The translations under genes and the position numbers were made by a program. A DNA stretch of 63,978 bases, counting the filler, from Octopus bimaculoides (Eukaryota), in the NCBI RefSeq assembly GCF_001194135.2. It is 6 parts of 5 records of this genome, joined end to end, with 100 filler letters (N's around TTAATTAATTAA, not from the genome) between each part and the next. Parts side by side here need not be neighbours in the genome. Positions count along the whole stretch, not along the records: positions 14,201 to 39,083 come from NC_068985.1; positions 39,184 to 45,437 come from NC_068982.1; 4 more parts are not named here. One strand, written 5' to 3'. The notes beneath the pieces were generated by a model. It saw nothing but the letters and a program-made list of their open reading frames with translations. It ran no database searches and was not told where the DNA came from. Below are positions 20,646 to 45,240 of the stretch, in pieces. The number at the start of each line of letters is the position of its first letter. The first letter of the stretch is position 1.

Positions 20646-20758
20646 TGTTGATTAAACTGTTTATTTTATAACAGACACTTATGACATACTATGTCATATC
20701 AACAATTAAGATTACAAATTTAAGGGACATCTAGCAATCGGAGAAGGGACAAAATCTT
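20646..20758 (-). mobile_element. Inverted partial copy of the HHR-bearing Penelope-like repeat
   Basis: Reverse complement of 21281-21418, apart from a ~25 nt indel and a few substitutions. Confidence 0.8.
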
Positions 20759-21151
20759 GAAAAACGTTTATACCAGTGATCATGTATGTATGGGAGTATA
20801 TGTATATACAAATGTGCATGCATGTATGTAAGTGTGGGTGGGTATATATATATGTGTCTGCCCTCCTCACATATAGTAACAGTGACTGTTGACTCTTGGT
20901 ATGCATGTACAGCCATCTATGTATGCGCATCTGAACACATATATAGGTACTCATGTGTTTTTGTTTTTGTATTCATGTATATCTGTATATGGTAATGTAT
21001 ACATGCATATGCATGTATATATGAGTTTTTATGACTCTTTATATGGCTTTTTATATGTTTTTTGTATGTTTTTTTATATGCCTTTATATTTTTATATTTT
21101 TATTTTTATATTTGTATTTGAATTTTACAAAATTCAATTCATGAATTTTGT

Positions 21152-21287
21152 AAATCTCTGAAGAGGCCTAGTGAATCATGCATGTACCCCCATTGCATCA
21201 TTTTCCTCTACCAATTACCCCAGCGTACTAGAGCTATATAGATAGAATGGGGCATGCCAACACTAGGCCGAAACAGCTGTAAGATTT
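21152..21287 (+). ncRNA. Type I hammerhead ribozyme with extended stem II
   Basis: Stem I AAAUCU/AGAUUU; CUGAAGA at 21158-21164; stem II GGCCUAGUG/CACUAGGCC (9 bp perfect); GAAA; stem III with palindromic ACAGCUGU; predicted cleavage after GUA at 21281. Confidence 0.85.
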
Positions 21288-21800
21288 TGTCCCTTCTCCG
21301 ATCGCTAGATGTCCTTTAAATTTGTAATCTTAATTGTTGATATGACATAGTATGTCATAAGTGTCTGTATATTGTCTTTATTGTCATTTTGGTTATAAAA
21401 TAAACAGATTAATCAACAGAGTACAGTGTATGCAAATTGATGGGTACCTCATATTCCCCTCCATTTTCTTATTNNNNNNNNNNNNNNNNNNNNNNNNNNN
21501 NNNNNNNNNNNNNNNNNNNNNNNNNNNNNNNNNNNNNNNNNNNNNNNNNNNNNNNNNNNNNNNNNNNNNNNNNNNNNNNNNNNNNNNNNNNNNNNNNNNN
21601 NNNNNNNNNNNNNNNNNNNNNNNNNNNNNNNNNNNNNNNNNNNNNNNNNNNNNNNNNNNNNNNNNNNNNNNNNNNNNNNNNNNNNNNNNNNNNNNNNNNN
21701 NNNNNNNNNNNNNNNNNNNNNNNNNNNNNNNNNNNNNNNNNNNNNNNNNNNNNNNNNNNNNNNNNNNNNNNNNNNNNATATATATATATATATATATATA

Positions 21801-22455
21801 GGGCGGGTAAAATTCCCGAGATCCATGGACGAATTCTCTCCAGCAGTCTTTGTCCCTCATCATCACTGCCATGTCCTGTACCCCCCAGAAACCAGTGTCT
21901 GTTCTTAGGGCATCAACATATGTCATCCTCGGTCTCCCTCTTCTAGTGTATCCGTGTAGGAGCTCCCACAGGAGCCCTGAATGACGGTGAGCCTGCCCAG
22001 CTAACCTCATTCTCCTCTGTGTTATTTTTGAGCTAACTTTTTGCAGGCTCCCATACAGCTCTGAGTTCTTCATCTTCAGTGTATACTGATTAATGTTCAG
22101 AGCCATCCTCAGCATTTTCGTGTAGCACCTATCTAAGTGAGTTTCTTGATCAGTGTCCAAGTCTCAGATCCGTACAACAGCACAAACTCCACTGCAGCTA
22201 CGAAGAGACGGATCTTCAGGTCTTTACGAAGGTCGGACTTCCATACAGATCTCAAACTGTAGATTGCCGGTCAGGCTTTGCTCTTCTTCTCAACTATATC
22301 ACCCTCCGTGTTCCCAATCTTTGCTCTCAGATACAGGAAGTCCTCAACCAACTCTAGTGGCTTCCCGCCTACACTCATAATCTTCTCCGGCTTCTTAGAG
22401 TTTTCTACCAGATACTTCGTCTTAATTTCATTCATTTTCACCCCCATACTCATCC
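21801..22455 (-). mobile_element. RTE-clade LINE, 5'-truncated ORF2 C-terminal fragment
   Basis: Reads VKMNEIKTKY..LELVEDFLYL..LLYGSETW..LDRCYTKMLRMALN..RRMRLAG..RGRPRMTYVD..WR with one stop and one frameshift, and ends in (TA)n. Confidence 0.9.
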
Positions 22456-23929
22456 ACACATACACACACACGCATACATAGATGTATTGTGCGTGTATGC
22501 GCGTGAGTTTGTGTGTGTGTGTATATCTTATATATGTGTATGTCAGCATGTAAATATGCATGTATATGTGTGTACTTGTGAATTTAAACAAGTAGACGTG
22601 CACATGTCAATATGAATATGTTTAGTAAAATATGTAATTATGTATAAATAAGACGGAAAGTTGATGTGTGTGTGTGTGTGTGTGTGTGTGTGCGGGCGCA
22701 CGCTTGCGCACGAGCATGTCTGTGTGTGTGTGTGTGGCTGTGTGTACGTGTGTGTGTGTGTATGTGTGTGTGCGTGCGTGTGTATGTATGTATATGTGTG
22801 TGCATGCTTGTGTCGATTTACAAACGCAGCAAAAAGTACTTGGTTACTCAAAAATGTAAGCAGACATAAGCGGACTGACAGACAGACAGACAGACAGACA
22901 GATAGACAGATAGATAGATAGATAGATAGATAGATAGATAGATAGATGAACCACTAACAGAGAGAGAAAGAGAGAGAGAGAGAGAGAGAAATATTATATA
23001 TATATATATATATATATATATATATATACAGAGAGAGACAGACAGACAGACAGACAGACAGACAGAGTGATAAGTAGGTCGACAAATATAGAAGGCAAAA
23101 TAACAGATATTGACAAATAAAGATAGAGAGAGATAAAGAGAGATATAATAACAGGCCGTGAATGAGTGACAGAAAGGCAAATTGAGAATTATAGATGTAT
23201 ATAAATGTACATACGATAGAAATATTTCATATATCGGTGTCTGTTGTAAGTCTGTTTGTCTATACGCAAATATACAGTCGCACAGGCACGCACTCATATC
23301 CATATGAGTGCGTGCACGCGCGTGTGTGTGTGTGTGTATATATATATATATATATATGTATATATATATTGAAGCATAGTACTTATTCTATCGGTCACTT
23401 TTGCCGAGCTGATACGTTACAAGGACATATCATATATACTCCAATACCATTTGTCAAGCAGTTGTGGGGGACAAGCGCTAAAACAACACACTCATACACA
23501 CACACACACGCACACACACACACACACACACACACACACACACACNNNNNNNNNNNNNNNNNNNNNNNNNNNNNNNNNNNNNNNNNNNNNNNNNNNNNNN
23601 NNNNNNNNNNNNNNNNNNNNNNNNNNNNNNNNNNNNNNNNNNNNNNNNNNNNNNNNNNNNNNNNNNNNNNNNNNNNNNNNNNNNNNNNNNNNNNNNNNNN
23701 NNNNNNNNNNNNNNNNNNNNNNNNNNNNNNNNNNNNNNNNNNNNNNNNNNNNNNNNNNNNNNNNNNNNNNNNNNNNNNNNNNNNNNNNNNNNNNNNNNNN
23801 NNNNNNNNNNNNNNNNNNNNNNNNNNNNNNNNNNNNNNNNNNNNATATATATATATATATATATATATATATATATATATATATATATATATAATTATAG
23901 ACAGACAGACAGATGGACAGACAAACAGA

Positions 23930-24119
23930 CAGATAGATAGATAGATAAATAGATAGATAAATAGATAGATAGATAGATAGATAGATAGATAGATAGATAG
24001 ATAGATAAATAGATAGATAGATAGATAGATAGATAGATAGATAGATAAATAGATAGATAGATAGATAGATAGATAGATAGATAGATAGATAGATAGATAG
24101 ATAGATAGATAGATAGATA
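23930..24119. repeat. (GATA)n microsatellite
   Basis: Direct reading. One of many simple repeats; it explains the YLSI pseudo-ORFs. Confidence 0.95.
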
Positions 24120-43500: not shown

Positions 43501-44289
43501 TATTATTATTATTATTATTATTATTATTATTATTATTATTATTATTATTATTATTATTATTATTATTATTATTATATATATATATACATATATCTCATTT
43601 ATATATATATATATATATATNNNNNNNNNNNNNNNNNNNNNNNNNNNNNNNNNNNNNNNNNNNNNNNNNNNNNNNNNNNNNNNNNNNNNNNNNNNNNNNN
43701 NNNNNNNNNNNNNNNNNNNNNNNNNNNNNNNNNNNNNNNNNNNNNNNNNNNNNNNNNNNNNNNNNNNNNNNNNNNNNNNNNNNNNNNNNNNNNNNNNNNN
43801 NNNNNNNNNNNNNNNNNNNNNNNNNNNNNNNNNNNNNNNNNNNNNNNNNNNNNNNNNNNNNNNNNNNNNNNNNNNNNNNNNNNNNNNNNNNNNNNNNNNN
43901 NNNNNNNNNNNNNNNNNNNNNNNNNNNNNNNNNNNNNNNNNNNNNNNNNNNNNNNNNNNNNNNNNNNNNNNNNNNNNNNNNNNNNNNNNNNNNNNNNNNN
44001 NNNNNNNNNNNNNNNNNNNNNNNNNNNNNNNNNNNNNNNNNNNNNNNNNNNNNNNNNNNNNNNNNNNNNNNNNNNNNNNNNNNNNNNNNNNNNNNNNNNN
44101 NNNNNNNNNNNNNNNNNNNNNNNNNNNNNNNNNNNNNNNNNNNNNNNNNNNNNNNNNNNNNNNNNNNNNNNNNNNNNNNNNNNNNNNNNNNNNNNNNNNN
44201 NNNNNNNNNNNNNNNNNNATATATACATGTGTGTGTTTGTGTGTGTATGTCTGTGTGCGTGTGCGTGTGTGTGTTTGTGAGTAAGTCTG

Positions 44290-44510
44290 TGTGTGTCTGT
44301 GTCTCTGTGTGTGCTTGTGTGTTACGACTGATTCTCTATCGGTTTTGGTGTGATTACGTCCTGATAACGTAGCTGTTCTGCCAATGAGACAAAAAAGTAT
44401 CAGTCTTTGAAAATTCAGCCAAGCAAATCCATTCGTTCTCCAAATATTCTTGAAGTTGGTGCCTTAGAATAGCTGCAGTCTAATGAGTGAAACAATTAAA
44501 ACAGAAAAGG
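44290..44510 (+). mobile_element. SINE family C, decayed 3' half
   Basis: ggtgtgattacgtcctgataac..ttcttgaagttggtgcc..gcagtctaatgagtgaaacaa. Confidence 0.6.
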
Positions 44511-44778
44511 TAAAATGAGAGAAGTGAAATGAAAGAACAGATGTTTATTCCGTTAGTTGATGGCTGTTTCATAATCCCGGAACCATGTGATAGGGAAGTA
44601 AGCTTCTAGTATATCCTGCCATTCTATCGTAATCTAAAATTCATCCAAGCCTGTATCGTGATATTTTGTATAATGTCAAAGAGTCGTGTTTATCAGTGTT
44701 AGTGAATCTTCACTTTACGCGTATGAATAGATAACTTGATTCATTTTAAATTACATTACGATAAGCCAACCAGTTCAG

Positions 44779-44928
44779 AGGAAGGGGTAAGTTTACATCA
44801 ACCCCAGTGCTTATTTGGTGCTTATATATCGTTCCCGGAAGGAGGAAAGGTAAAGTCGACCTCGGTGGAATTTACACTCAGAACGTGAAGACATACGATT
44901 TGCTGCTAAACATTTTGCCCGGGCTGTC
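44779..44928 (-). mobile_element. SINE family A, decayed
   Basis: aaggtaaagtcgacctcggtggaatttacactcagaacgt. Confidence 0.75.
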
Positions 44929-44989
44929 TTTTAAGTAAAGAACGCACATACTAAACTGGATACGAAATGATATATATCTACCAGTATAA

Positions 44990-45240
44990 CTATAATTATC
45001 ACTGGAAAATACTCACACGGATTCTATACATGGATATTTACTTTTGGAATGGAACTATACTCCAAGTACTTTTTCTTCTTTGTTTTTTCTTCTCTGCATC
45101 GCTCTCATTTCTTACTGCAAATCTCCTGATACAGATTTAATAATCCTTAACTTCTACTATTACCGTCTCCGAGGAAGGGATACATTGAATTTTCTCTGAA
45201 ACAGCTGTAAGACATTCTACATAAAATATAAATTTATTTA
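44990..45240 (+). mobile_element. Decayed Penelope-like repeat related to the 32841-33576 arms
   Basis: Contains ttttggaatggaacta and a mutated HHR tct-CCGAGGA-AGGGATA...GAAACAGCTGTAAGA at 45166-45212. Confidence 0.55.

What the first reader, a model, noticed from the sequence alone, without database searches (positions are those of the whole stretch)
20646..45212. Family of hammerhead-bearing repeats with a shared tails-outward inverted layout
Seen: seven type I HHR motifs in ~25 kb (21152+, 32910-, 33471+, 38934+, 40946-, 43345+, 45166+), from about four different sequence families. Three loci are inverted pairs with tails pointing outward: 20646-21418, 32841-33576 and 40881-43500. All have a palindromic or CpG-decayed palindromic stem III (ACAGCUGU, AC-ACGU-GU, AACGUU). 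Established: Penelope-like retroelements carry minimal type I HHRs in their pseudo-LTRs, palindromic loop III favours dimeric cleavage, and inverted pseudo-LTRs are known. Inference: these are non-autonomous HHR foldback elements abundant in this genome. The density, family diversity and repeated geometry may not be described for cephalopods.
Basis: partly seen in the sequence, partly recalled or inferred. Interest (0 to 1): 0.75.

Follow-up and report, generated by a model that had tools for sequence, protein, structure and literature searches.

The report
Penelope stumps pair long with short
The seven predicted self-cutting RNA motifs are real, but six lie in the cut-short ends of four ordinary Penelope-like jumping-gene families; their back-to-back layout is already known, and what the counts add is that the two arms of a pair almost always stop at two different fixed points about 150 bases apart, likely because both ends of the cut target DNA start copying the same RNA at different sites.

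Summary
All seven hammerhead (HHR) motifs are present (0 in 100 shuffles), but they lie on two unrelated stretches joined in the pack, and belong to five families. Four (A, B, C, E) are 5'-truncated 3' ends of Hydra-type Penelope-like elements: longer copies carry decayed RT and/or GIY-YIG frames upstream on the HHR strand. They are not a separate class of non-autonomous foldbacks. Head-to-head copies, one-sided tails, HHRs and an octopus Hydra family are published. Only 18-45% of sampled copies have an inverted partner. Family D is a fixed ~225-bp ORF-less unit with no partner in 50 loci. Added here: each family has two fixed 3' ends 139-164 nt apart (published tails: 30-40); of 66 classifiable pairs 61 join a long and a short arm, 5 two short, 0 two long, and 7 of 7 new pairs agree. 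Arms share a source (43 of 49), and snap-back copying cannot explain 32 of 56. A pile-up of 5' ends at the HHR cut site did not replicate. Cleavage is untested. The scan found this class before on other DNA.

The parts
20646..20758 (-). Family B inverted arm; begins at the HHR cut site (-1), no ribozyme, 25-nt internal deletion, stops before either fixed 3' end
20759..21473 (+). Family B arm, 5'-truncated 3' UTR of a Hydra-type PLE, ending at the short 3' end next to an assembly gap
   Evidence: ORF-linked copies L438/L450, L448
21152..21287 (+). HHR B: 6-bp stem I, CUGAAGA core, 9-bp stem II with 105-nt stem-loop, palindromic stem III, predicted cut after 21281
   Evidence: (fold z -3.8)
32833..33246 (-). 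Family A left arm (-348..+80 of the cut site), short 3' end, followed by (AC)n; HHR C3 at 32952, predicted cut after 32913
33245..33578 (+). Family A right arm (-268..+74), short 3' end, followed by (AC)n; HHR C3 at 33474 with a 9-nt stem II deletion. One of 5 short/short exceptions
38870..39083 (+). Family D: fixed-length ~225-bp ORF-less unit between (TA)n tracts, minimal HHR (C3 at 38938, unpaired base after A9, GUU triplet here, GUG in most copies); single copy
40711..41494 (-). Family C left arm (-556..+237), LONG 3' end, followed by (AC)n; HHR C3 at 41031
41652..42313 (+). Three tandem copies of an unrelated SINE-like repeat lying between the C arms (likely later insertions)
   Evidence: same family at 2433, 26655, 30366, 44790, 46238, 55325
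42933..43513 (+). Family C right arm (-519..+83), SHORT 3' end, followed by (TTA)n; HHR C3 at 43348 with U16.1 changed to C
44921..45418 (+). Family E single arm (-289..+207), long 3' end, followed by (TA)n; HHR core CCGA (U4C, family-wide), C3 at 45169

Best explanation
Six of the seven motifs lie in 5'-truncated 3' ends of four Hydra-type Penelope-like retrotransposon families, and each tails-outward pair is likely one insertion in which both ends of a cut TA/CA-repeat target primed reverse transcription on the element's RNA, one at a distal and one at a proximal fixed site. Shown: family identity, two fixed 3' ends 139-164 nt apart, the long-plus-short rule, direct head-to-head junctions, shared source of the arms, microsatellite flanks. 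Inferred: a dimeric RT-EN cuts both strands; the two cDNAs grow toward each other, stop at independent points and are joined; the same RNA (or a sibling from the same locus) is copied twice over the overlap; short TA/CA patches at the proximal site likely let the target end pair there. The HHR sits in the 3' UTR upstream of both start sites, is predicted to cut only as a dimer, and is copied through intact in most inserts, so it likely plays no part in making the foldback. D is likely a short non-autonomous PLE derivative.
For: Hydra-type frames upstream on the HHR strand: A (RT core motifs and EN in L416), E (RT thumb, CxCX5C linker, GIY-YIG-like, CxxC, CxH, no CCHH), B (two copies 92% alike over 1.3 kb, one contiguous with the B HHR region), C (EN in L074, L079, L083); motifs match the Hydra alignment of Craig et al. 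by eye. Geometry among arms reaching the 3' region: 78 tails-out, 2 tails-in, 5 short tandem; 7 of 7 close pairs among the first 100 pattern hits are tails-out. Per locus 61 long+short, 5 short+short, 0 long+long of 66 classifiable (10 more unclear), against 33/19/14 expected; 7 of 7 pairs in later loci agree. 51 of 78 junctions abut within -10..+1 nt. Arms more alike than family background in 43 of 49 pairs; same B subfamily in 14 of 16. The long arm reaches further upstream in only 24 of 56 pairs, which snap-back from a long first strand cannot give. In vitro a PLE protein cuts and extends both strands, starts at two internal sites, is predicted dimeric, and does not need HHR cleavage (PMC11167929).
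Against: 5 short+short pairs, one of them in this window (32833-33578), and the window's B pair fits neither class. 55-82% of sampled copies show no partner arm. Arm likeness could partly come from gene conversion. Pfam gave only a sub-threshold GIY-YIG hit (E 0.056) for 1 of 6 segments; no tree was built, no intact ORF, DKT or RWK motif was seen. No pLTR-ORF-pLTR tandem was found. Frangieh et al. report non-homologous priming and no start-site difference between strands, for another clade. No cleavage or priming was measured.
Confidence: 0.7

Rival explanations
1. Same elements, but the inversion arises by self-priming of an antisense template (Arkhipova et al. 2013) and the endonuclease later trims one arm back to the short end.
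For: Proposed for head-to-head PLE copies in PMC3846280; Craig et al. ascribe the tail to EN resolution; it also gives arms of one source.
Against: It needs exactly one arm trimmed nearly every time (0 long+long of 66); in 8 of 56 pairs the long arm lies wholly beyond the short end, so the arms share no sequence; snap-back of a sense-templated cDNA is excluded for 32 of 56.
Confidence: 0.2
2. One reading: dedicated non-autonomous HHR foldback elements whose two ribozymes are kept as a functional unit.
For: Inverted pairs are frequent (A 13 of 29, E 9 of 26, B 5 of 27 and 8 of 28); D is short, ORF-less and fixed in length.
Against: Every pair has its own junction; single arms dominate; long copies carry RT/EN; the two HHRs lie on opposite strands so one transcript holds only one; within-family stems decay without compensation except one B stem II pair; D never folds back (0 of 50).
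Confidence: 0.05
3. In family B the HHR cuts in vivo and RT runs off the cut end, leaving 5' ends at the cleavage site.
For: First sample: 26 of 69 arms at risk end in -2..+30, against 6 of 76 and 3 of 41 in the neighbouring bins; the window's left B arm starts at -1; B has the most canonical fold.
Against: Bins were chosen on that sample. Independent arms: 5 of 33 vs 8 of 41 and 6 of 27, 3 of 16 vs 1 of 17 and 1 of 13, 6 of 28 vs 3 of 32 and 2 of 21; pooled without overlap 12 of 70 vs 19 of 141, p 0.54. No pile-up in A (1 of 29). RT stalling at the fold or a transcription start would give the same signal.
Confidence: 0.15

Closest known systems
Hydra clade of C-terminal EN+ Penelope-like elements, incl. 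Hydra-1_Obim of Octopus bimaculoides and Penelope-13_HM (Craig et al. 2021, PMC8557442; seen: passages, section 11, supplement rows and part 2 of the archive)
   Same: RT then CxCX5C linker then GIY-YIG EN without CCHH; sense HHR near the 3' end; (TA)n targets; 5'-truncated inverted copy with an HHR on each strand (Penelope-13_HM); mismatch at 10.1-11.1 seen in listed Hydra HHRs.
   Different: None of the five HHRs matches the Hydra-1_Obim row; loop-less palindromic stem III; stem II regions of 64 and 105 nt in C and B; U4C core in E; 3' UTRs of roughly 1.2 kb (A) to 2 kb (B) and Asn-rich inserts make the elements longer than the <3 kb stated; tails of 139-164 nt.
Complex EN+ PLE insertions: inverted 5'-truncated pLTR with one-sided tail (Arkhipova et al. 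2013, PMC3846280, passages; Craig et al. 2021 Fig. 2 legend)
   Same: Head-to-head is the commonest arrangement; tail at one end only; microhomology junctions; Asn-rich inserts in the ORF.
   Different: Tail four to five times longer than 30-40 bp; the one-long-one-short rule is counted here (68 of 73, none long+long); no partial tandem found.
Minimal type I HHRs of metazoan PLEs (Cervera and De la Pena 2014, PMC4209133; parts 1-2 of 4 read)
   Same: Family D matches the min-HHR design (unpaired base after A9, G10.1-C11.1, palindromic 15.2-16.2); they already report dual motifs 100-700 bp apart on opposite strands and mostly single motifs from truncated PLEs.
   Different: Most D copies have a GUG triplet; D has fixed ends and no known coding partner.
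PAc Poseidon element of Anolis (Frangieh et al. 2024, PMC11167929; parts 1-2 of 4 read)
   Same: Two RT start sites bound the tail; both strands cut and extended; HHR cleavage not needed for insertion.
   Different: Other clade; start sites a few tens of bases apart; priming reported as non-homologous, whereas here the short ends carry TA/CA patches like the target.
Non-LTR retrozymes (Li et al. 2026 preprint 10.64898/2026.07.22.740005; part 1 of 5 read)
   Same: Type I HHR, non-coding, PLE-derived.
   Different: Retrozymes are head-to-tail tandems with an HHR per unit; none of the five families was found so.

Membership tests
Hydra-clade PLE (families A, B, C, E) | RT followed by C-terminal GIY-YIG EN on the HHR strand | tested here: met
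   A: RT core and EN in L416; E and B: RT thumb plus EN; C: EN only. All frames broken.
Hydra-clade PLE (families A, B, C, E) | CxCX5C linker; CxxC and CxH around the conserved E and N; no CCHH | tested here: met
   Seen in A, B, E translations; linker decayed in the C copies read, CxxC present.
Hydra-clade PLE (families A, B, C, E) | RWK and DKT motifs at the RT N-terminus | tested here: inconclusive
   Motif scan of 10 long loci: no copy reaches that far 5'.
Hydra-clade PLE (families A, B, C, E) | RT phylogeny within Hydra | not tested
   No reference sequences in the script box; assignment is by motif comparison.
Hydra-clade PLE (families A, B, C, E) | Sense HHR near the 3' end | tested here: met
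   cut site 60-200 nt before the short end.
Hydra-clade PLE (families A, B, C, E) | Insertion in (TA)n-type microsatellites | tested here: met
   Purine-pyrimidine alternating flank after 112 of 131 long ends and 115 of 163 short ends with called flanks.
EN+ PLE insertion unit | Inverted 5'-truncated copy, head-to-head, tail on one side | tested here: met
EN+ PLE insertion unit | Partial tandem forming pLTR-ORF-pLTR | tested here: inconclusive
   None among fetched loci (flanks 1-6 kb, gapped assembly); Hydra-1_Obim is also listed as 'no pLTR'.
EN+ PLE insertion unit | Tail of 30-40 bp | tested here: not met
   139, 157, 164, 146 nt, each +/- about 10 because of TA/CA overlap.
Type I hammerhead ribozyme | Core CUGANGA...GAAA...UH with stems I-III | tested here: met
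   family-wide deviations: A10.1-A11.1 in A (87 of 108), 2-bp stem I in C, U4C in E, GUG in most D.
Type I hammerhead ribozyme | Covariation of stems I and II | tested here: met
   Between families the stems keep pairing with different sequences; within families only one B stem II pair covaries (UG 33, UA 16, CG 13).
Type I hammerhead ribozyme | Self-cleavage | not testable with these tools
   Genomic proxy did not replicate.
Non-LTR retrozyme | Head-to-tail tandem units each with an HHR | tested here: not met
   No HHR tandem among the first 100 listed hits; 5 short local duplications only.
   Junction positions differ between pairs.

The most novel reading that the evidence does not exclude
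Penelope-type insertion is a programmed double priming: the two halves of a dimeric RT-endonuclease are assigned to two different start sites about 150 nt apart on one RNA, one per target strand, so every two-armed insert has one long and one short end. This would explain both the inverted repeat and the one-sided tail of PLEs with one step, and the four octopus-type Hydra families give defined start sites to test it.
Probability: 0.5. Interest if true: 0.55.

Novelty: new member of a known kind. Interest (0 to 1): 0.33.

Why it matters
How Penelope-like elements make their inverted ends and tails is still open; the rival models are antisense self-priming with later trimming and two-site priming. 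A strict long-plus-short rule over four families, with arms from one source and independent 5' ends, narrows this and names the sites for a biochemical test. Practically, these stumps seed thousands of HHR motifs and long hairpins in this genome (1,439 exact hits of one 20-mer) and will keep being mistaken for new foldback or MITE-like elements. The class, layout and ribozymes themselves are known.

Tried and rejected
Rfam scan: no hammerhead family among the 150 rows shown of 218; all shown were microsatellite-driven hits. The repeat finder was swamped by microsatellites. Cut-site pile-up of 5' ends in B: strong in the first sample, not replicated in three later ones; first tally omitted long copies held from another search and was corrected. 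Pattern search with 2 mismatches listed the same 100 places and gave only a count (697, control 2). Expression: no RNA holder listed; three raw-read RNA runs of one study laid on a B copy gave mostly reads under 95% alike, on both strands, with no start or end pile, uninformative on cleavage. Shared tail hairpin (lead from earlier notes): alignment fold of 4 A and 6 E tails gave -2.4 kcal/mol and no hairpin next to the short end; single folds of B and C tails show hairpins there, not alike; not supported for these families, not excluded. First descriptor script missed the 6-nt palindromes through a regex slip, fixed; a relaxed-core scan found no eighth motif. An RT fragment of another PLE type beside one B copy (L429) was seen once and not taken as B's partner. 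Literature searches; none returned a paper counting long versus short ends in pairs, but subscription papers (e.g. Evgen'ev and Arkhipova 2005, Pyatkov 2004, seen only as citations), Repbase and Dfam could not be checked. An O. vulgaris repeat annotation (PMC13282606, passages) has no mention of hammerhead or ribozyme in its main text. The species was not tested; 'octopus-type' is an inference.
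Full report
Observation. The window is a pack; a joint at 39084-39183 splits the finding. The stretch with the first four motifs maps to G000:C5 and the one with the last three to G000:C2. They fall into five families: A (32952-, 33474+), B (21158+), C (41031-, 43348+), D (38938+), E (45169+). The three inverted loci are real, but the B locus has one ribozyme only, and D and E are single copies.

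Abundance. Exact pattern counts in G000: 1,439 for a 20-mer over the A-type ribozyme, shared by related families (about half of 69 loci matched family A only in that core); 128 for an A-specific 22-mer; 228 exact and 697 with two mismatches for B; 123 for E; 287 for D. Reversed-pattern controls gave 0, or 2 with mismatches. These are lower bounds.

What the families are. A, B, C and E have sharp 3' ends and ragged 5' ends. Long copies run upstream, on the ribozyme strand, into broken frames with the Hydra signature described by Craig et al. 2021: CxCX5C linker, GIY-YIG-like motif, CxxC and CxH, no CCHH (A; E; C; B). L416 (A) holds RT core motifs and is itself a 5-kb tails-outward pair; L413 (E) holds the RT thumb and EN in the same layout. 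Pfam sees only a sub-threshold GIY-YIG hit in 1 of 6 segments, so the clade call rests on motif comparison by eye. D differs: about 225 bp, both ends fixed, (TA)n flanks, no shared sequence beyond them, no inverted partner in 30 unbiased and 20 best-hit loci, and a GUG triplet in most copies.

Ribozymes. B is the most canonical (6-bp stem I, 9-bp stem II, 105-nt stem II region, fold z -3.8). A carries A10.1-A11.1 in 87 of 108 arms, C a 2-bp stem I, E a family-wide U4C core; U4C is a known natural variant with lower activity (PMC3088659, passage). The other six window copies do not fold better than shuffles at z < -2. Stems covary between families but barely within them, as expected of dead copies. 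Palindromic stem III predicts dimer-only cleavage (PMC4209133); the two motifs of a pair are on opposite strands and cannot be that dimer.

Geometry. In unbiased samples an inverted partner is seen in 14 of 64 loci, 13 of 29 (A), 9 of 26 (E), 5 of 27 and 8 of 28 (B). Over all loci mapped: 78 tails-outward pairs, 2 tails-inward, 5 short tandems; some pairs were fetched because both arms matched a pattern, so this total is not a frequency. Each of the four families has two fixed 3' ends, 139 (A), 157 (B), 164 (C) and 146 (E) nt apart, both usually followed by TA/CA-type repeats; the element's own bases right after the short end resemble that target. One call per locus: 61 long+short (tails cut short counted as long), 5 short+short, 0 long+long, 10 unclassifiable; independence predicts 33, 19, 14. 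Seven of seven pairs in loci fetched afterwards were long+short (read from the output). In the window, C obeys the rule, A is a short+short exception and B's left arm reaches neither end. 51 of 78 junctions abut within -10..+1 nt (microhomology not tested against chance). Arms are more alike than family background in 43 of 49 pairs and share the B subfamily in 14 of 16. The long arm extends further upstream in 24 of 56 pairs and lies wholly beyond the short end in 8.

Mechanism. A snap-back copy of a long first strand must be the shorter arm at the junction, which fails in 32 of 56 pairs, and a short first strand cannot template the tail. L1-type twin priming (recalled) gives non-overlapping arms, true for only 8 of 56. 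The simplest fit is two primings on the RNA, one per target strand, at two fixed sites, with the overlap copied twice. This is inference, in line with in vitro work on another clade: both strands cut and extended, two start sites bounding the tail, a predicted dimer, ribozyme not needed (PMC11167929). Antisense self-priming with one-sided trimming (PMC3846280) is not excluded.

Cleavage in vivo. The window's left B arm starts at the cut site, so I tested whether 5' ends pile there. The first sample showed 26 of 69 against 6 of 76 and 3 of 41, with bins chosen on it. Three later samples gave 5 of 33, 3 of 16 and 6 of 28; pooled 12 of 70 against 19 of 141, p 0.54. Not established. RNA reads were uninformative.

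Known versus new. Head-to-head truncated copies with a one-sided tail are the standard PLE insertion; opposite-strand HHR pairs 100-700 bp apart were reported in 2014; Hydra elements with HHRs, (TA)n targets, an inverted copy and an Octopus member are in the 2021 supplement. Our five HHRs match none of its rows. Five literature searches found no count of end classes in pairs nor tails of this length; Repbase, Dfam, subscription papers and most of the 59 supplement parts were not seen. Earlier scan notes on other DNA reach the same class; my reading was fixed before the first look-up. Verdict: new members of a known kind, with one mechanistically useful regularity; interest 0.33.

Noticed in passing
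window 7340-7463: A 124-bp imperfect palindrome (77%) with a GAAACG-type motif on each arm; may be a further head-to-head pair cut inside the ribozyme. The descriptor finds no full HHR there.
   Followed up: partly
window 2433-2658, 26655-26862, 30366-30573, 41652-42313, 44790-44922, 46238-46327, 55325-55529: An abundant ~200-bp SINE-like family with A- and B-box-like motifs; three tandem copies sit between the C arms. Family name not established.
   Followed up: no
L416, L413, L450, L448: Asn-rich, in-frame inserts between RT thumb and EN in families A, E and B, like the N-rich inserts of Adineta Penelope (PMC3846280).
   Followed up: partly
L091 and 11 similar motifs; L200: The U4C core recurs in other families besides E, with intact stems.
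   Followed up: partly
L466-L495: Family D mostly has a GUG cleavage triplet, outside the usual NUH rule; the window copy belongs to a GUU subgroup.
   Followed up: partly
L242, L251, L254, L261, L268, L274, L277, L166, L184, L305, L321: Inversions of upstream segments without a second 3' end, like ordinary twin-priming inversions, occur beside the long+short pairs.
   Followed up: no
L185: Three B arms in a row: a tails-outward pair abutting a third arm tail-to-tail.
   Followed up: no
L058, L149, L178, L199, L433, L051: Further unrelated HHR families in the flanks of fetched loci, several with 40-80-nt stem II regions.
   Followed up: no
window 37280-38050 (+), 21780-22163 (-), 62386-62808 (+): Fragments of non-LTR retrotransposon frames (RT C-terminal and RT N-terminal like, by recall), unrelated to the finding.
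   Followed up: no
window 62910-63978: The last stretch is a satellite of ~20-bp units.
   Followed up: no
window 20627-20654: A short perfect-looking hairpin caps the outer end of the B left arm, where the expected long tail is missing.
   Followed up: partly
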